Virus record (IMG/VR): IMGVR_UViG_3300042503_001430 | Location: 23,584 to 87,583 of that record | Reading direction: 5' to 3' (one strand) | DNA: 64,000 bases | Source of the DNA: a virus | In this document: piece after piece, positions 30,245 through 35,694 of the stretch | Layout: each line of letters begins with the position of its first letter | How positions within the stretch are numbered: the stretch's first letter is position 1 | The notes under the pieces: generated by a model | Database searches by the model: none | What the model was told of the DNA's origin: nothing | What the model saw: only the letters and a program-made list of their open reading frames with translations | Translations under genes and position numbers: made by a program

Positions 30245-31015
30245 ATGGGCAAACGGTCCAGCAGAAAAAACGCACATCACGAGCCGCAAGAAGAGACAGT
30301 TTTTGAGGAGATAGTAGATCCTTATCGCCGACAGAAAAAGCTACTCAAGCACAATTTTCCGTTAGGTCAGATTACTCCATTAACTGACAATCAAGAAGCT
30401 GCGTTTCATGCAAATGGTTCTGCAAAGAATCTCGTTCTGTATGGTGTTGCTGGCACAGGTAAAACATTTCTTGCGTCTTATTTCGCACTCAGTGATCTTG
30501 TTGCGGGTCATGCAAAACGAATCATCATTGTTCGAAGTGCAGTGACAACACGTGATCAAGGTTTCTTACCAGGTACGCTTCAAGAAAAAATGGCTATGTA
30601 CGAAGCGCCATATCGTGAAGTGTTTGCTGAATTGTGTGGTGGTAGACGTGATGTCTATGATGTTCTCAAGAAGAAAGACTACCTTGAGTTCATGTCAACA
30701 TCATTCATTCGAGGTGTCACATTCGATGATGCAATTATCATCGTAGATGAAATTCAGAACCTCACCGATCATGAAGTCAATTCTGTGTTGACTCGTGTTG
30801 GTAAAAATACTCGTGTCATTCTTTGTGGTGACACACGACAGAACGATCTTAAAATGACGGGCAAGAAGAATCAAGAAACTGGTATGCCAGGTCTGCTGTC
30901 GGTTGCGAGAGCGATGAACAGTTTTGCGCTCGTCGAGTTCGGTGTGAAAGATATTGTGCGCTCTGGTTTCGTCAAAGAGTACATCATCACACGCATCAAT
31001 CTTGGACTCGATTGA
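30245..31015 (+). CDS. phoH: PhoH-family ATPase
   Basis: GVAGTGKT, GFLPG, FIRGVTF, DEIQN, CGDTRQND, DIVRSG. Confidence 0.95.
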   Translation: MGKRSSRKNAHHEPQEETVFEEIVDPYRRQKKLLKHNFPLGQITPLTDNQEAAFHANGSAKNLVLYGVAGTGKTFLASYFALSDLVAGHAKRIIIVRSAVTTRDQGFLPGTLQEKMAMYEAPYREVFAELCGGRRDVYDVLKKKDYLEFMSTSFIRGVTFDDAIIIVDEIQNLTDHEVNSVLTRVGKNTRVILCGDTRQNDLKMTGKKNQETGMPGLLSVARAMNSFALVEFGVKDIVRSGFVKEYIITRINLGLD

Positions 31016-31097
31016 TTCTGAAAGAACGATAAAATCTTGCTTTTTCGTTTCATTTTGTGTACATTATGAAAGCAGTATTCATTAAAGGTGATTGAAC

Positions 31098-31547
31098 ATG
31101 GCAAAGAACACAAAGAAGACAGAGGGTGTAAAGCACGACCAGCAGAAAATCCGTTGGGACTTGATTCCATACGATGCAGTCAATGAGATTGCTAAAGTAC
31201 TCACTTTCGGTGCAGCGAAGTATGAAGCACGAAATTGGGAAAAGGGTATGGATTGGTCACGTGCGTTCGGTGCACTACAACGCCACCTCACTCGATGGTT
31301 TCATGGTCAAGATAAAGACAAAGAGACCAAACTCACTCACTTAGCAAATGCTGGTTGTTGCTTGTTCTTTCTACTCTCATGGGAGCTTCGTCAAGTTGGT
31401 AATGACGACCGACCGAAGTTAGATCCAAAACTTCTTGAGCACATGGATGATACAGAATTCATGCAAAATGTATTCGAACTTCTCAAGCAGGTAAACCAGC
31501 AACAATCCACAGAAGACGAAGAAGTTGCAGAGAACCTTCCAAACTAG
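31098..31547 (+). CDS. dATP/dGTP diphosphohydrolase-like (DUF5664) protein
   Basis: GVKHDQQKIRWDLIP...VLTFGAAKY..RNWEKG...RH...D.ETKLTHLANA. Confidence 0.85.
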   Translation: MAKNTKKTEGVKHDQQKIRWDLIPYDAVNEIAKVLTFGAAKYEARNWEKGMDWSRAFGALQRHLTRWFHGQDKDKETKLTHLANAGCCLFFLLSWELRQVGNDDRPKLDPKLLEHMDDTEFMQNVFELLKQVNQQQSTEDEEVAENLPN

Positions 31548-31560
31548 GTTCATGTAAATA

Positions 31561-31589
31561 TTGACAATCACATAAATCTTGTGTATACT
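31561..31589 (+). promoter_or_regulatory. Near-consensus sigma70 promoter for tmRNA
   Basis: TTGACA-17-TATACT. Confidence 0.85.
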
Positions 31590-31597
31590 GGTTTTAC

Positions 31598-31985
31598 GGG
31601 CCTGCGTAGTTTCGACAAGCTGTAGGAACTAGCCTCTCCCACAACACGATGATGGTTCTTGGCATCGTAATAAATGAACCACCGTTTAAGTGCAAACTTC
31701 AACGACTCTGCTTACGCCTTAGCTGCATAAGCCGTGGTGTGTAACTGTTCTGCTAGTTACGTTACACACTGCGAAACTCAAACTAGCGGTGCTCACGGAT
31801 AACCGTTCGTAACGTGAGGGTAAAACCTAATCTTGGAGCGGGAATAGTGGCTACCCACTACCGACATGACTTAGAGGTGTTTGATCTGTAAAGTCTGAGG
31901 TCTATTAATTGATCAACCTATTGTTGTAAACGGAACTAGAGAACACAGCTTGAACAACGGGTGCGACTCCCGTTCAGGTCCACCA
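31598..31985 (+). ncRNA. ssrA: tmRNA
   Basis: 5' GGGCCTG pairs with 3' CAGGTCC-ACCA (G3:U wobble); TTCGAC after D-like region; T-arm ACGGG-TGCGACT-CCCGT; tag ORF 31692-31730 ANFNDSAYALAA*. Confidence 0.95.
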
Positions 31986-32004
31986 ATTTGTCATAAATAG
32001 TAAC

Positions 32005-32095
32005 GGGTTTGTCACTAGGAAGTGTTTTTACCGTTTCCTGCTGCGAATCTGACTCCGAAGCGGAACGGTGCCAGGAGTTAGAAGTGACAAGCCCA
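32005..32095 (+). ncRNA. Unassigned ~90-nt structured RNA
   Basis: 12-bp terminal stem GGGTTTGTCACT/AGTGACAAGCCC enclosing two hairpins; starts 5 nt after late promoter 31993-31999. Confidence 0.65.
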
Positions 32096-32105
32096 CTTGA
32101 ATATT

Positions 32106-32960
32106 ATGAAAAACTTTTCAGAATTTCTAACAGAATCAATACTCGACCCCGAACAAGCTACCTTGTCGCCACAGGTGTTTGATGCAGACGGTACGAAGCT
32201 CAAGCCTGAAGTTCGCACTCAAATCATCGCAGGTATCTCGAAGCTTGCTGATAAAGCTAACGTGGTAGACTACACACTCATTGGTAGCATACTCACGAAG
32301 CGATATGCACCAGACTCAGATATTGATGTGAACATTCTTATCAACACCAAGCAGAGTCAGATTGATGATATTCGCTCGTTAGCTGTCAGTCTCAGTGGCA
32401 AAACCATCACCGGCACAAAACACCCAATCAACTACCACGTCTTAGCAGACAAAACAGATTTTGATAATGCAAACGAATCTGCTGATGGTGTGTTTGACAT
32501 CAGCAACAATACGTTCATACGAAAACCAACCGAAAAGCCATTTCACATCGAGAAGTACTTCGGTGAATTCAAGAATGTTGTCTCTAAGATTGACGCACTC
32601 AAAGACGATTTGAAAGATGACTTGATTGACTACTCGGTGTTGAAAGCATTCTCAGAAGAAGACATGACGAACCTTCGCAAGATGATTGAGAAAGAGCTTG
32701 ATGAGATTGAGAGTGATGTGAAGGGTCTTTCTGCACTCTATGACAAAATCTGGAAAGACAGAAACGCAGGGTTTCAGAAGAAGCTTACGCCCAAAGAGAT
32801 TCGAGAATATGGCACCAAGAATCGACTACCAGGTAATGTCATCTACAAGTTGCTTGAGCGTCACCACTACCTTCAATTTTTACATCAGGTAGAAGAGATT
32901 GTAGCAGACGGCAAAGTTTCTGAAAAAGAAGCTGATAAATTGATTGACATTGTTTTCTAG
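32106..32960 (+). CDS. CTS-bearing Pol-beta-superfamily nucleotidyltransferase
   Basis: MKNFSEFLTES; IGS...SDIDV, INYH; C-terminal GNVIYKLL. Confidence 0.75.
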   Translation: MKNFSEFLTESILDPEQATLSPQVFDADGTKLKPEVRTQIIAGISKLADKANVVDYTLIGSILTKRYAPDSDIDVNILINTKQSQIDDIRSLAVSLSGKTITGTKHPINYHVLADKTDFDNANESADGVFDISNNTFIRKPTEKPFHIEKYFGEFKNVVSKIDALKDDLKDDLIDYSVLKAFSEEDMTNLRKMIEKELDEIESDVKGLSALYDKIWKDRNAGFQKKLTPKEIREYGTKNRLPGNVIYKLLERHHYLQFLHQVEEIVADGKVSEKEADKLIDIVF

Positions 32961-33184
32961 TGTGGTATCGTATGTCGATGCGAATGGTATTTCCATTTTT
33001 AGTTGTGATTTCTATCTTTGTGGGTCTATTCTTGTTGGGTAGGTTCGCAACGAAAAAGCACATTAATACAATAAATTGCATTTCTATGTGTGGTGATGGT
33101 GTTTGTGGATACAACATAATGTGTGAGTATCCACCCTGCGGGTGTTCAGAAAATGCTGTCGTATGTCCACGGGATTGTCATTAA
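32960..33184 (+). CDS. Small membrane protein with Cys-rich CGDGVC...E...CPRDC repeat
   Basis: TM plus Cys motif. Confidence 0.55.
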   Translation: MWYRMSMRMVFPFLVVISIFVGLFLLGRFATKKHINTINCISMCGDGVCGYNIMCEYPPCGCSENAVVCPRDCH

Positions 33185-33367
33185 AAAATTTTTGTAGGAC
33201 CATATCCAAACTGCTAAATAGTACGCATCAAAGTAGCAGCCCTACTTCGACCGACATGAAACTGGTAGCGCAATAAACGGTTTCTACCTTCGGAAGATTT
33301 AGGATTCTGGCTTTGTGTTATAAAGTCGCTCTGTCGAGCGCAAATGGAAAATTGAGCTATGGCGCAT

Positions 33368-33440
33368 CTGCACCTGACGAGCCCAGAAGGGCGAAACAGA
33401 GCGTAGACACGGCAACTATCGTGTCACCTCTGTAGTGCAG
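33368..33440 (+). ncRNA. Type I hammerhead ribozyme
   Basis: Stem I CTGCAC/GTGCAG; core CTGACGA; stem II GCCC-AGAA-GGGC; GAAA; stem III ACAGAG/CTCTGT; cleavage triplet GUA (cut 33434/33435). Confidence 0.9.
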
Positions 33441-33446
33441 TACCTC

Positions 33447-34235
33447 TTAAAACGCCAACAGTATCGAATCTGCTTTCAAAGCTTTCTTATCAATGTCAGA
33501 ACTAGACCCACTCTTGAGTGGTGCTATGTTGTAGGGTGACTTCTTTACCTTACCGAAATGCAACGTCATCACGAACTGATATGTACCAGAACCCTTCGCT
33601 TGACATCGAACTCGAATGATAGCACTCGCAGATTTTGCAAAGTCTGGTATTGGTGGTAGGTTATTGTCTTTCAGTGTTTTATTCAGGTCGAGATCATCTC
33701 TGCCGTTGAGGGTGAAAAGGCCATGTGTTCCTATGTTGATGTATGAGCACTTCTTCTTGCTGTAGTATTCGCATATAACACTTGCTGGTACATCAATATG
33801 AATTTCGTTATCTGCTCCAAATTTTTTGATGTCTTTTTCGTATGCGTCTTGTGGCGACTTTGCACCCACAATCTTTTTGCTTCCGTCTTTCTCGTTTTGT
33901 AGACACGGAGTCTTTTTTCTCCAATTCTTTCCTTCTTCACCTCTGCTGTTCATTTGTTGAAGCAGGTTGAACTTTTCTCCGATTGCTTGTAAGAACTCTT
34001 TCTCAACATGACCTTTGTACTCGCCATAATCCCATTTACCATCGACGTACTTCATAACAAGAGAACCAGCAGCAGTGGGTGATATTTTCAATTCACACCC
34101 TGTCGTCTTTTTCTTTTTGGATATTGTGAGGTCTGGCTTATCTCTCGCTGCACCAGCAATTCCACCCGTGGATATTTTGTGCTCTTGTAACGCCTTGTAT
34201 GCGTTCTCTTCGTATTCAAACCCTTTTTGAGCCAT
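33447..34235 (-). CDS. PD-(D/E)XK endonuclease-like protein
   Basis: GFEYE...KPDL...GCELK; SD GAGG upstream. Confidence 0.65.
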   Translation of the reverse strand: MAQKGFEYEENAYKALQEHKISTGGIAGAARDKPDLTISKKKKTTGCELKISPTAAGSLVMKYVDGKWDYGEYKGHVEKEFLQAIGEKFNLLQQMNSRGEEGKNWRKKTPCLQNEKDGSKKIVGAKSPQDAYEKDIKKFGADNEIHIDVPASVICEYYSKKKCSYINIGTHGLFTLNGRDDLDLNKTLKDNNLPPIPDFAKSASAIIRVRCQAKGSGTYQFVMTLHFGKVKKSPYNIAPLKSGSSSDIDKKALKADSILLAF

Positions 34236-34378
34236 TAATTCCTCGTATGATGGTCTTGCACTTTTGGTAGAAATGTGATATTTCTATTTATTTTGGGAAG
34301 CCAAAAAAACGAGTTTTTCCTTGAAATTGTGAATTTTCGTGTTTATTGATATTTTGGGGTAATTTAATAGGAGGTACT

Positions 34379-34732
34379 ATGACACTACTCGAAACCTTTT
34401 TTCCAGAAATCGCTGTGGACCGTCACGACGACTACAACCTAGTTAAGCTGAACGATTCTGAGATGTTGTTAGAATTCTCAGTTCCTGGAATCTCTGAGTC
34501 TGGTGTGGATGTTGAAGTTTGTGGAAACACCCTGACGGTATCTGCAACCAGCGCCGAAGAGAGAGAATACCTGTATAGGGGTCTCAGAAGCTCTACAATC
34601 GACCGTAAGCTCACTTTGCAAGATGACGTTGTGGTGAAGTCAGCAACCGTGAAAAACGGTATTCTTGGAATCACTTTGGAAGTTCAGATTCCAGATGAGA
34701 AGAAGCCACGAAAAATTGCAATTACACACTAA
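34379..34732 (+). CDS. Small heat-shock protein Hsp20
   Basis: YNLVKL...EFSVPG...YLYRGL...ATVKNGILGITL...PDEKKPRKIAI; AGGAGG SD. Confidence 0.92.
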   Translation: MTLLETFFPEIAVDRHDDYNLVKLNDSEMLLEFSVPGISESGVDVEVCGNTLTVSATSAEEREYLYRGLRSSTIDRKLTLQDDVVVKSATVKNGILGITLEVQIPDEKKPRKIAITH

Positions 34733-34818
34733 TGTGTATTTTCCACGATGTCGTTTTTTGGCATCGTGGAGATCAATTAATACTAGACATGAGCTGTCTG
34801 GGTGTATATCATGGTATA

Positions 34819-35694
34819 ATGATCACTAGACCATTATTGGCTGGCACTCTTGAAGATGTTAGCACCCTAAAATTCCCTGTTCTTGCAACACCGAAGCTCG
34901 ATGGTATTCGTGTACTGAAAGTTGATGGCAAAGCAGTCACACGAAAGTTCAAACCAATACCCAACCACCACATTCGCACCCTACTAGAGAAGCACCTGCC
35001 TGACGGTGTAGATGGTGAGGTCATGACACCAGGTACCTTTAATGACATTCAATCAAAAGTCATGTCACATGATGGTGAGCCTGAGTTTACTCTGTATGTG
35101 TTCGACTACGTGAAAGATGACTTGAATAAACCATACAAAGATCGAATTGCTGATATGGTCAAGTCGGTCAAGAACAAAGCACCATTTGTGATAGTTGTTT
35201 TGAAGCCGGTTATGATTACCTCACCAGAAGAGTTGCTTGCGTTTGAGAATGAGTGTTTAGAACAGGGATATGAGGGTGTGATGCTTCGTAACCCCGATAG
35301 TAAATACAAGTGTGGTCGATCAACACTTAAAGAACAGATACTACTGAAGCTCAAGCGATTCTTAGATGCAGAAGCTCGTGTTGTTGGTTTCGAAGAAAAG
35401 ATGCACAACGACAACAAACAAGAGAAAGATGAGTTTGGGTTGAGCAAGCGATCATCAAAGAAAGGTGGTCTACAACCAGCGAACACACTCGGTGCATTAG
35501 TTGTTGAAGACCTCACGACTGGTGTGAAATTTGGGATTGGCTCAGGGTTCGACGATGCGCTCAAGAAAGAGATTTGGACACACCGTGACAAATACCTAAA
35601 CAAACTGGTCAAGTATAAATATCAGTCGGTAGGTCAGAAAGATGCTCCAAGATTTCCGGTATTTCTTGGTTTCCGCAGTGAACTTGACACATAA
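34819..35694 (+). CDS. Compact ATP-dependent DNA ligase
   Basis: KLDGIR, DGEV, YVFD, EGVMLR, LLKLK, GSGF, PRFPVF. Confidence 0.93.
   Translation: MITRPLLAGTLEDVSTLKFPVLATPKLDGIRVLKVDGKAVTRKFKPIPNHHIRTLLEKHLPDGVDGEVMTPGTFNDIQSKVMSHDGEPEFTLYVFDYVKDDLNKPYKDRIADMVKSVKNKAPFVIVVLKPVMITSPEELLAFENECLEQGYEGVMLRNPDSKYKCGRSTLKEQILLKLKRFLDAEARVVGFEEKMHNDNKQEKDEFGLSKRSSKKGGLQPANTLGALVVEDLTTGVKFGIGSGFDDALKKEIWTHRDKYLNKLVKYKYQSVGQKDAPRFPVFLGFRSELDT

What the first reader, a model, noticed from the sequence alone, without database searches (positions are those of the whole stretch)
33214..33440. Late-promoter-driven ~210-nt structured RNA whose 3' end is a hammerhead ribozyme
Seen: a complete type I hammerhead (33368-33440, GUA site) with an extra hairpin GACACG-GCAACTAT-CGTGTC inserted in stem III. 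Upstream lie CTAAATA (33214) and several hairpins (AAGTAG/CTACTT, GGTAG/CTACC, GGCTTTGT/ATAAAGTC, CGACA/TGTCG, GCGC/GCGC) with no long ORF. CGCTCTGT (33327-33334) is fully complementary to ACAGAGCG of stem III and could compete with the active fold, acting as a switch. Inference: an undescribed phage ncRNA matured by self-cleavage to a 2',3'-cyclic phosphate end, possibly a substrate for the ligase-fold protein. It also abuts the 3' end of the convergent nuclease gene.
Basis: partly seen in the sequence, partly recalled or inferred. Interest (0 to 1): 0.75.

Follow-up and report, generated by a model that had tools for sequence, protein, structure and literature searches.

The report
Hammerhead-tailed small RNA of cyanophage-like myophages
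An uncultured T4-like phage carries a gene for a conserved, roughly 210-base non-coding RNA: a rod-shaped hairpin followed by a complete self-cleaving hammerhead ribozyme that most likely cuts out the RNA's own 3' end. The job of the rod is unknown.

Summary
Window 33368-33440 (+) is a complete type I hammerhead that would cut after A33434. It is the 3' part of a conserved unit that starts at a T4-late-promoter-like box (33214-33220) and ends at the last hammerhead base.

I found 12 distinct full copies in viral and metagenome contigs. A 13th keeps the 5' rod but has a terminator-like hairpin plus U6 instead of the ribozyme. On the 12 copies, a 45-pair structure is 95.5% paired, 19 pairs have changes on both sides, and 0 of 500 shuffles reach this. 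All 12 keep the catalytic core and a GUA, GUC or GUU cleavage triplet.

No Rfam family matches the 5' rod, and the hammerhead scores below Rfam's gathering threshold (28.7 bits against 52).

The link to the ligase is unsupported: it is an ATP-dependent DNA-ligase type, and no RtcB or RNA ligase was found.

Best reading: a late, trans-acting small RNA whose 3' end is made by self-cleavage. In 9 of 12 loci a hypervariable restriction-like nuclease gene ends 0-12 nt from the ribozyme.

This scan found the same RNA family earlier on another genome (e1-5705755, e1-5705768).

The parts
33214..33220 (+). T4-late-promoter-like box CTAAATA. Relatives have TATATATA or TATAAATA at the same place.
   Evidence: A box of this type sits at the same distance from the first conserved helix in all 13 loci. 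TAAATAGT also precedes the CyVA-1 RNA at 31994. No transcript data are available.
33227..33317 (+). 5' rod domain: one long irregular hairpin of about 26 pairs in 5 helices, separated by conserved small internal loops.
   Evidence: RNAalifold on 13 sequences gives 26 pairs, 13 of them with compensatory changes. The hand-drawn structure is tested. Covariance model R1 scores 104.4 bits here.
33265..33277 (+). Apical loop GUAGCGCAAUAAA. GGUAGCGCA and AAA(C) are invariant in 13 of 13 copies.
   Evidence: Alignment A3.
33327..33340 (+). Short variable hairpin CGCTC-TGTC-GAGCG.
   Evidence: Helix 6: 4 of 5 pairs have changes on both sides. L013, L014 and L020 carry an extra hairpin here.
33354..33365 (+). 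Conserved GAGCUAUGGCGC, with no partner in the tested structure, just 5' of stem I. UAUGGCG is invariant in 12 of 12 copies.
   Evidence: L036 keeps UAUGGCAC without a hammerhead. The only candidate partners are in the apical loop (GUAGC:GCUAU or GCGC:GCGC), and neither shows a change on both sides.
33368..33440 (+). Type I hammerhead ribozyme. Stem I 33368-33373/33435-33440; core CUGACGA 33374-33380; stem II 33381-33392; GAA 33393-33395 (G12 A13 A14); stem III 33396-33401/33428-33433.
   Evidence: (covariance model R2 scores 107.4 bits).
33406..33425 (+). Distal extension of stem III (GACACG-GCAACTAT-CGTGTC). It is one of three alternative inserts in the family.
   Evidence: The type with the GCAACUAU loop is in 7 of 12 copies, a longer insert is in 4 of 12, and a third form is in 1 of 12.
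33434..33435 (+). Predicted self-cleavage site, after GUA (A17 = 33434).
   Evidence: Position follows from the hammerhead consensus. The triplet is GUA in 4 copies, GUC in 7 and GUU in 1, all of them allowed NUH triplets. Cleavage was not tested.
33447..34235 (-). Convergent 262-aa gene with a PD..(E)xK nuclease-type motif. This is context, not part of the RNA. Its stop codon lies 6 nt after the hammerhead.
   Evidence: (invariant D32, P34, D35 ... E48, L49, K50). No Pfam, PHROG or PDB sequence match.

Best explanation
This is a stand-alone gene for a small non-coding RNA of a clade of uncultured T4-like myophages related to cyanophages.

Proposed mechanism:
1. Transcription starts a few bases after a T4-type late promoter box (inferred).
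2. The first ~95 nt fold into a rod-shaped hairpin with an invariant 13-nt tip. A variable hairpin and an invariant stretch GAGCUAUGGCGC follow (fold shown by covariation).
3. The last 73 nt fold into a type I hammerhead that cuts itself after GUA at 33434 (inferred from a complete, conserved core).
4. Because the ribozyme is type I, the cut leaves the whole RNA of about 209 nt, ribozyme included, as the 5' product ending in a 2',3'-cyclic phosphate. It discards whatever read-through lies downstream.

The hammerhead is therefore a built-in 3'-end maker that does not depend on a terminator. The rod with its tip is the working part, most likely a binding site for a protein or another RNA in late infection. 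Its partner is not known.
For: (1) Conserved unit. Twelve distinct full copies plus one variant were found by exact-pattern scans of viral contigs and metagenomes. Sequence conservation begins at the promoter box and stops at the last base of stem I.

(2) Structure. With 45 pairs on 12 sequences, 95.5% of cells are paired and 19 pairs have changes on both sides. 0 of 500 shuffles reach any of the five measures. Slid controls give 31-41% paired.

(3) Ribozyme.
- The core is invariant in 12 of 12 copies.
- The cleavage triplet varies only among GUA, GUC and GUU.
- Stem I covaries: UUGCAC/GUGCAA in L029 and CCGCAC/GUGUGG in L041.
- Position 15.3:16.3 changes A-U to G-C.

(4) 3'-end role.
- In L036 the same rod (R1 55.7 bits) is followed by a 20-pair hairpin plus U6 instead of a hammerhead. 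A remnant UAUGGCAC-UUUCUGUAG sits where UAUGGCGC-UUCUGCAC lies in the others. The two kinds of 3' end are thus interchangeable.
- In L041 and L046 a terminator-like site lies about 50-70 nt beyond the ribozyme, so the ribozyme would trim a trailer.
- In 9 of 12 loci nothing co-oriented lies downstream.

(5) Own promoter. In L017 the RNA is inverted relative to all flanking genes and faces the ligase gene head to head, so it cannot be the 3' UTR of an upstream gene.

(6) Fixed genomic place. The RNA lies between PhoH/dGTPase/tmRNA/CyVA-1/nucleotidyltransferase and Hsp20/ligase/gp33/gp59/gp32.

(7) Not coding. The small ORFs differ in length and frame between copies, and the indels are not multiples of three.
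Against: - No transcript, end-mapping or cleavage data exist. No RNA run was obtainable, so the promoter, expression and cutting are all inferred.
- The hammerhead is below Rfam's gathering score for every hammerhead family (28.7 against 52).
- Stem II never varies, and no stem I/II tertiary contact could be identified, so the cleavage rate in vivo is unknown.
- The box in this phage (CTAAATA) departs from TATAAATA, and such short boxes are barely enriched in the window (4 against 1.8 expected).
- The function of the rod is unassigned: no antisense target in the window beyond chance, no adjacent protein gene common to all 13 loci, and no Hfq, Ro60 or SmpB in the record.
- The 13 sequences are related, so shuffle controls overstate significance. 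Family size is a lower bound from exact patterns only.
Confidence: 0.7

Rival explanations
1. The RNA and the convergent nuclease gene form one module. Either the abundant late RNA is antisense to the unterminated 3' end of the nuclease mRNA and turns the nuclease off late (as in type I toxin-antitoxin pairs with 3' overlap), or the conserved RNA gene is the homing target next to which selfish nuclease genes insert.
For: - In 9 of 12 loci a long reverse ORF (192-412 open codons) stops 0-12 nt after the last hammerhead base.
- These ORFs are mutually unrelated by blastp, except W/L049 and weakly L017/L029.
- One is a type II restriction enzyme by PADLOC (L029, E 1.5e-13). The window's family has an invariant PD..ELK motif.
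- In L017 the RNA and the ORF are inverted together.
- The window's ORF family sits at a quite different place in four other phages, so it is mobile.
- No terminator-like site lies between the gene and the RNA in the window.
- From memory, not from a call: the T4 homing endonuclease SegB lies in the tRNA gene region.
Against: - Three of 12 full copies (L019, L041, L046) and L036 have the RNA without such a gene, so the RNA has a job of its own.
- A mere antisense partner would not need a covarying rod with an invariant tip.
- A homing-target role explains the neighbour, not the RNA.
- No nuclease activity or transcript overlap has been shown.
Confidence: 0.12
2. It is an mRNA-processing hammerhead like most phage type I hammerheads. 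The 'RNA' is a long structured leader, and the cut releases a downstream message (Hsp20 or ligase) with a 5'-OH end.
For:
- Of 102 distinct further examples, 64 look type I, and 45 of those have a Shine-Dalgarno-like box and a start codon within 90 nt downstream.
- In L019, L041 and L046 a co-oriented Hsp20 or ligase gene follows.
Against: - In 9 of 12 loci the next gene is on the other strand.
- In L041 and L046 a terminator-like hairpin lies between the ribozyme and the ligase start.
- In L017 the RNA points away from the ligase gene.
- Conservation stops at the cleavage site.
- None of 100 other hammerhead loci has the rod.
Confidence: 0.08
3. One reading: the upstream segment CGCTCTGT pairs with stem III and gates self-cleavage, making an allosteric or kinetic ribozyme switch.
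For: In the window and L049 a 7-8-nt perfect complement exists. Type-A copies share GCUC against GRGC, which allows 5-7 pairs.
Against: - In 10 of 12 copies the best pairing is no better than in 14-270 of 300 shuffles of the same segment.
- The segment is the 5' arm of an adjacent hairpin, with changes on both sides in 4 of 5 pairs.
- The four type-B copies and L017 have unrelated stem III sequences.
Confidence: 0.05
4. It is a chance hammerhead-like fold, or a decaying relic with no function.
For: The Rfam score is below gathering. Hammerhead-like motifs do arise by chance in large data sets.
Against: - All 12 copies keep every core base and an allowed NUH triplet, while stems I and III change in a compensatory way.
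- There is exactly one copy per locus, always fused to the rod. R2 found one match in each of the 9 member sources that were among the 77 sources searched.
Confidence: 0.03

Closest known systems
Type I hammerhead ribozymes in intergenic regions of phages and prophages (Perreault et al. 2011, PMC3088659, passages read; Rfam clan CL00010)
   Same: Same catalytic core, three-stem topology with open stem I, and NUH site. The exact core-plus-stem-II string CUGANGAGCCC..GGGCGAAAC is shared with at least 120 other viral contigs.
   Different: - The typical examples have a short stem III (median 15 nt between GAAAC and stem I 3' strand, against 38-53 nt here).
- They mostly sit just before a ribosome-binding site and start codon (45 of 64 type I-like).
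- This one is fused behind a conserved ~150-nt structured RNA with its own promoter box, and usually has nothing co-oriented downstream.
- None of 100 other loci has the rod.
Hammerhead_HH9 (Rfam RF02275)
   Same: It is the best-scoring Rfam model: type I, 6-bp stem I, similar core context.
   Different: The score is 28.7 bits against a gathering score of 52. There is a 31-nt insert in stem III, and no conserved distal stem I. HH9 is, from memory, an intronic ribozyme of amniotes. This is a resemblance of shape, not membership.
HDV-like theta ribozymes next to phage tRNAs (Kienbeck et al. 2024, PMC10879173; title and start of abstract seen in the search listing)
   Same: A small self-cleaving ribozyme in a tailed phage that lies next to a non-coding RNA gene (a tRNA). 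That it processes the tRNA's end is recalled, not read.
   Different: A different ribozyme class, a different RNA (tRNA against an unknown rod RNA), and different phages. From memory, theta ribozymes lie 3' of tRNAs and stay with the trailer. Here the ribozyme stays on the mature RNA.
CyVA-1 RNA (Rfam RF02965; Weinberg et al. 2017, PMC5737381, passages read) and the phage tmRNA in the same island
   Same: Neighbouring small RNA genes of the same clade. The same TAAATAGT box precedes CyVA-1. The function of CyVA-1 is also unknown.
   Different: No sequence or structure match between them. CyVA-1 is about 77 nt and has no ribozyme.
   Same: An environmental RNA of unknown function.
   Different: Not reproduced here. 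There is no IMES-2 match at E up to 10 in the 451-nt search, in four other members, or in the whole 87.6-kb record.

Membership tests
Hammerhead ribozyme (clan CL00010), type I | Catalytic core C3 U4 G5 A6 N7 G8 A9 ... G12 A13 A14 with an A15.1-U16.1 pair | tested here: met
   CUGA(C/A)GA ... GAAA is invariant in 12 of 12 copies. A15.1-U16.1 is A-U in 12 of 12.
Hammerhead ribozyme (clan CL00010), type I | Three helices around the core, with stems II and III closed and stem I open | tested here: met
   The minimum-free-energy fold of 33368-33440 gives exactly this. Stems I, II and III are 100% paired in 12 sequences.
Hammerhead ribozyme (clan CL00010), type I | Helices supported by compensatory change | tested here: met
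   Stem I has 2 pairs with changes on both sides and 1 with a one-sided change. Stem III has 1 pair with changes on both sides. Stem II never varies and so is uninformative.
Hammerhead ribozyme (clan CL00010), type I | Cleavage triplet N-U-H (H is not G) | tested here: met
   GUA in 4 copies, GUC in 7, GUU in 1; never GUG.
Hammerhead ribozyme (clan CL00010), type I | Score at or above an Rfam hammerhead gathering threshold | tested here: not met
   The best score is HH9 at 28.7 bits against 52. L016 scores 31.7, L049 26.3, and L041 only 18.8 to the type III model. The long stem III insert costs score.
Hammerhead ribozyme (clan CL00010), type I | Tertiary contact between stems I and II (loop-loop or pseudoknot) for fast cleavage | tested here: inconclusive
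   Loop II is a variable 4-nt NNNA. The 3' side beyond stem I is not conserved. The conserved 5' tail GAGCUAUGGCGC has no covarying partner.
Hammerhead ribozyme (clan CL00010), type I | Self-cleavage giving 2',3'-cyclic phosphate and 5'-OH ends | not testable with these tools
   This needs a bench assay or cyclic-phosphate RNA-seq.
Pre-gene intergenic type I hammerheads of phages | Short stem III hairpin and a co-oriented start codon shortly downstream | tested here: not met
   9 of 12 copies have a reverse-strand ORF downstream. The stem III segment is 38-53 nt against a median of 15.
IMES-2 (RF02035) | Match to the Rfam covariance model | tested here: not met
   No match at E up to 10.
Y RNA / YrlA-type Ro-binding RNA | Rfam match, and a Ro60 (TROVE) gene (often with RtcB) in the genome | tested here: not met
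   No Rfam match. No TROVE or RtcB in the 87.6-kb record. The record is about 60% complete, so absence is not proof.
tRNA, tmRNA or tRNA-like element | Detected by ARAGORN or the Rfam tRNA/tmRNA models | tested here: not met
   ARAGORN finds nothing in 31000-34000. Rfam at E up to 10 lists only HH9 and a noise hit. The likeness of the tip GGUAGCGCA to a tRNA D-arm is from memory only.
Type I toxin-antitoxin-like cis-antisense pair (3' overlap) | Convergent transcripts that overlap, and a toxic protein partner | not testable with these tools
   The geometry fits in 9 of 12 loci and no terminator lies between the two. No transcript data exist, and the RNA occurs without the gene in 4 loci.

The most novel reading that the evidence does not exclude
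The hammerhead RNA gene is a docking site and controller for mobile restriction-type nuclease genes. Unrelated nuclease genes repeatedly settle tail-to-tail within 0-12 nt of the ribozyme's last base, and the pair is even inverted together in one phage. The abundant late RNA, cut free by its ribozyme, would pair with the unterminated 3' end of the nuclease message and silence it late in infection. Self-cleavage would keep the antisense part short. This would be a ribozyme-tailed antitoxin-like RNA that lets a phage carry interchangeable DNA-degrading weapons.
Probability: 0.1. Interest if true: 0.8.

Novelty: new variant of a known kind. Interest (0 to 1): 0.6.

Why it matters
Thousands of hammerheads are known in bacteria and phages, but few have a defined job. 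Here the anatomy states one: a type I hammerhead fused to the end of a conserved small RNA, interchangeable with a terminator in a relative, so it acts as a self-contained 3'-end maker that leaves a cyclic-phosphate end.

The finding also defines an RNA family that is in no catalogue searched. The family belongs to a clade of uncultured T4-like aquatic phages that carry an unusual island of RNA genes (tmRNA, CyVA-1 and this RNA). This gives a concrete handle on what small RNAs do late in infection by T4-like phages related to cyanophages.

The precise abutment of hypervariable restriction-like nuclease genes to the ribozyme is a second, testable oddity.

The claims can be tested directly with a synthetic gene: a cleavage assay, end mapping and a pull-down of partners.

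Tried and rejected
- **Close DNA relatives among deposited phages:** blastn of 32000-35000 and of 33190-33460 found none.
- **Loci syntenic by the 262-aa neighbour (L002-L010):** no hammerhead and no rod. That gene sits in another genomic context there.
- **Loci with more distant homologues of the nucleotidyltransferase (57 loci, L079-L135):** no rod. In 20 of them scanned with Rfam there is no tmRNA or CyVA-1.
- **Cellular genomes:** 19 pattern hits, none confirmed by R1.
- **Synechococcus phage S-SRM01 (whole record) and three other viral records:** no R1 match. L046's record was not held, so it was not searched.
- **Known RNA families for the rod:** none at E up to 10. IMES-2 was tested specifically and found absent. 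ARAGORN found nothing.
- **Antisense targets of the tip and of GAGCUAUGGCGC in the window:** no more than chance.
- **Long-range pairings:** only two short candidates, without changes on both sides.
- **Ideas from memory that I dropped for want of any test:** tRNA D-arm mimicry by the tip; likeness to the tmRNA tRNA-like domain; complementarity of GAGCUAUGGCGC to a 23S rRNA segment (by my own estimate about 0.7 such matches are expected by chance); CRISPR-repeat mimicry; a small peptide (ORFs differ in length and frame between copies).
- **Partner proteins:** no RtcB, Rnl-type ligase, TROVE, SmpB or Hfq in the record.
- **Variable neighbour ORFs:** no Pfam family and no PDB sequence match for the window's family.
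- **Expression:** The look-up of sequencing runs listed no RNA holder, so read laying could not be used. This is no evidence either way.
- **Not in print:** the statement rests on searches, and on passages of PMC3088659, PMC5737381 and PMC3037559. The hammerhead alignments of Perreault et al. 2011 (Dataset S1) and the motif lists of Weinberg et al. 2017 could contain members of this family, and I could not check them.
Full report
**What is there**

They are all correct.
- The 73 nt at 33368-33440 contain the full hammerhead consensus.
- Stem I is CUGCAC/GUGCAG, the core strand is CUGACGA, and stem II is GCCC-AGAA-GGGC.
- GAAA is followed by stem III ACAGAG/CUCUGU, then A17 at 33434.
- This is a type I ribozyme that would cut between 33434 and 33435.
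- Its minimum-free-energy fold is exactly this junction (-32.5 kcal/mol, z = -4.31, 0 of 200 shuffles as stable).
- Rfam's default scan does not list it. A permissive scan gives Hammerhead_HH9 at 28.7 bits against a gathering score of 52, with E 3.4e-5 for 451 nt and 0.0048 for the whole window. The 31-nt insert in stem III costs score.
- It is the only hammerhead in the window.

**Where the window comes from**

The window is part of an 87,583-bp IMG/VR virus record estimated at 60% complete.
- Its gp32-like protein is closest to T4-like cyanophages. The best match is Synechococcus phage S-SRM01 at 60.1%.
- Neighbouring genes are PhoH, a dATP/dGTP diphosphohydrolase, a Pol-beta-type nucleotidyltransferase, Hsp20 and an ATP-dependent DNA ligase.
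- By comparison with S-SRM01, gp33, gp59 and gp32 follow.
- A tmRNA (31598-31985) and a CyVA-1 RNA (32012-32087) lie just upstream.

**Relatives**

No deposited phage matches at the DNA level. Exact-pattern scans gave the following.
- Viral contigs: 7 full homologues (7 of 13 stretches, the other 6 being chance or other hammerheads). The same 7 came up with a pattern from the 5' part alone.
- Looser patterns: one more divergent copy, L029, and a variant, L036 (the other new stretches are coding-region coincidences).
- Metagenome scan: 7 true stretches of 34, of which L041, L046 and L049 are new and 4 duplicate viral contigs.

That makes 12 distinct full copies plus L036.
- nhmmer and two covariance models found no further copy in any other locus held.
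- None was found in S-SRM01's whole record or in three other viral records.
- None was found among 19 pattern hits in cellular genomes.
- The family is therefore small and clade-specific as far as exact patterns can tell. This is a lower bound.

**The unit and its fold**

In the alignments, conservation starts at a TA-rich box (TATATATA, TATAAATA or CTAAATA, each followed by G/A-T) and stops at the last base of stem I.

The first ~95 transcribed bases form one long irregular hairpin.
- RNAalifold on 13 sequences gives 26 pairs, 13 of them with compensatory changes.
- The tip is a 13-nt loop in which GGUAGCGCA and AAA(C) never change.
- Small symmetric internal loops, such as UC-GA-CCGA opposite UCGG-AA-GA, are also invariant.

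After the rod come:
- a short hairpin whose sequence changes while the pairing is kept, with an extra hairpin in three copies;
- an A-rich linker;
- the stretch GAGCUAUGGCGC (UAUGGCG invariant in 12 of 12);
- the hammerhead.

A hand-drawn 45-pair structure was tested on the 12 full copies.
- 95.5% of cells are paired.
- 19 pairs and 40 cells have changes on both sides.
- 0 of 500 shuffles reach any measure.
- Versions with the 3' partners slid by 1-3 columns give 31-41% paired.
- The sequences are related, so the shuffle figure is not a probability. The slid controls and the number of independent pair types still make the fold secure.

**The ribozyme in the family**
- All 12 copies keep every core base.
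- The cleavage triplet is GUA (4), GUC (7) or GUU (1), never GUG.
- Stem I changes in a compensatory way in L029 and L041 and to G-U in L017.
- Stem III's third pair changes A-U to G-C.
- Stem II never varies.
- The distal part of stem III comes in three unrelated versions. Within the commonest version, ACACG/CGUGU alternates with AUACG/CGUAU.
- This is the pattern of a working hammerhead. Cleavage itself is inferred.

**What the ribozyme is for**

Four observations point to 3'-end formation of the upstream RNA.
1. Being type I, it leaves the whole RNA, ribozyme included, as the 5' product.
2. L036 has the same promoter box, the same rod (55.7 bits) and a remnant of the junction (UAUGGCAC-UUUCUGUAG). 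The ribozyme is replaced by a long hairpin followed by U6 (the simple scan misses it because of its bulge and long loop). Ribozyme and terminator are therefore interchangeable.
3. In L041 and L046 a terminator-like site lies some 50-70 nt beyond the ribozyme and just before the ligase start. The ribozyme would trim a trailer rather than feed a message.
4. In 9 of 12 loci the next gene is on the other strand. In L017 the RNA is inverted relative to all its neighbours, so it is neither a leader nor a 3' UTR.

**Comparison with other phage hammerheads**

- Among 102 distinct further examples, 64 look type I by a crude test. Their median stem III segment is 15 nt.
- 45 of those 64 have a Shine-Dalgarno-like box and a start codon within 90 nt downstream.
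- This is the intergenic, message-cutting arrangement described by Perreault et al. 2011 (PMC3088659, passages read).
- None of 100 such loci has the rod.
- The ribozyme here is thus an ordinary phage hammerhead put to a different use.

- *The switch.* CGCTCTGT/ACAGAGCG is a 7-8-nt perfect complement in the window and in L049 (7 and 5 of 300 shuffles reach it). In the other ten copies it is no better than chance (14-270 of 300). The segment is the 5' arm of the covarying local hairpin.
- *The ligase.* It is of the ATP-dependent DNA-ligase type. By established enzymology this type cannot join a 2',3'-cyclic phosphate to a 5'-OH. No RtcB or Rnl-type ligase was found in the partial record.

**What the rod does**

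This remains open.
- No Rfam family matches it.
I could not reproduce it on this member or four others.
- There is no antisense target in the window beyond chance.
- No protein gene is adjacent in all 13 loci.
- There is no Ro60, SmpB or Hfq in the record.
- The only candidate long-range pairings are tip GUAGC with GCUAU, or tip GCGC with GCGC in the invariant stretch. The two single changes seen (C to U in L017 and in L041) keep a G-U pair, but nothing changes on both sides.
- The RNA always travels with the tmRNA wherever enough upstream sequence is held (window, L011, L017, L019, L020, L029).
- More distant phages that share the nucleotidyltransferase have none of the three RNAs.
- I therefore commit only to this: a trans-acting late RNA whose invariant tip and internal loops are a binding surface.

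**The neighbour**

In 9 of 12 loci a long reverse ORF stops 0-12 nt after the last hammerhead base.
- These ORFs are unrelated to each other by blastp, apart from W/L049.
- They have no Pfam family.
- All show a D-hydrophobic ... (S/E)xK pattern by eye.
- In the window's family, PD..ELK is invariant.
- L029's ORF is a type II restriction enzyme by PADLOC (E 1.5e-13).
- The window's family lies at another genomic place in four other phages.
- In L017 the RNA and the ORF are inverted as a pair.

The simplest reading is that mobile restriction-like or homing-type nuclease genes insert next to this conserved RNA gene. A regulatory antisense link is possible but untested. Since four loci have the RNA without such a gene, this does not explain the RNA itself.

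**Verdict**

The switch and ligase ideas are not supported.
- The hammerhead is a new member of a known class.
- The fusion to a conserved small RNA as a 3'-end device, and the RNA family itself, were not found in the literature searched or in Rfam 15.
- The same family was already noted by this scan on another genome.
- Nothing here is experimental. Transcription, cleavage and function remain to be shown.

Noticed in passing
window 31598-32087; L011, L014, L017, L019, L020, L029, L046: The tmRNA and/or the CyVA-1 RNA recur upstream of the hammerhead RNA in relatives: tmRNA in 5 loci at 61-75 bits, CyVA-1 in 3 loci. Twenty loci of more distant phages that share the nucleotidyltransferase have neither. 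ARAGORN does not call the window's tmRNA, although Infernal scores it at 62.6 bits.
   Followed up: partly
window 33447-34235 (-); L011:4351-5466, L013:596-1333, L014:7004-8239, L016:1871-2449, L017:3467-4372, L020:6638-7585, L029:1-789: A slot for hypervariable nuclease-like genes. Mutually unrelated ORFs of 192-412 codons all end 0-12 nt from the hammerhead. L029's is a type II restriction enzyme by PADLOC. The window's family has an invariant PD..ELK motif and sits elsewhere in other phages.
   Followed up: partly
L017:2171-4604: The RNA gene and its convergent nuclease-like ORF are inverted together relative to the otherwise conserved gene order.
   Followed up: no
L036:505-668 (= L057): A variant of the RNA. 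It has the same promoter box, rod and tip and a remnant of the junction, but the hammerhead is replaced by a long hairpin plus U6. It lies between the dGTPase-like gene and Hsp20/gp33/gp59/gp32, with no nucleotidyltransferase or ligase nearby.
   Followed up: partly
L156-L260 (IMG/VR contigs): At least 120 viral contigs carry hammerheads with the identical core and stem II string. Several have 2-3 copies (L171, L176, L197, L211, L221, L242). Most type I ones sit just before a ribosome-binding site. Others look type II, with a closed stem I upstream.
   Followed up: partly
window 31994-32001 and 33215-33222: The same octamer TAAATAGT precedes both small RNA genes (CyVA-1 and the hammerhead RNA). 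There are four copies in the window against 1.8 expected.
   Followed up: no
window 32097-32960 (+): The Pol-beta-type nucleotidyltransferase next to CyVA-1 has at least 63 relatives in viral contigs. It gives weak matches to PADLOC PDC-S09 models. It is absent near the RNA in L029 and L036, so it is not an obligatory partner of the RNA.
   Followed up: no
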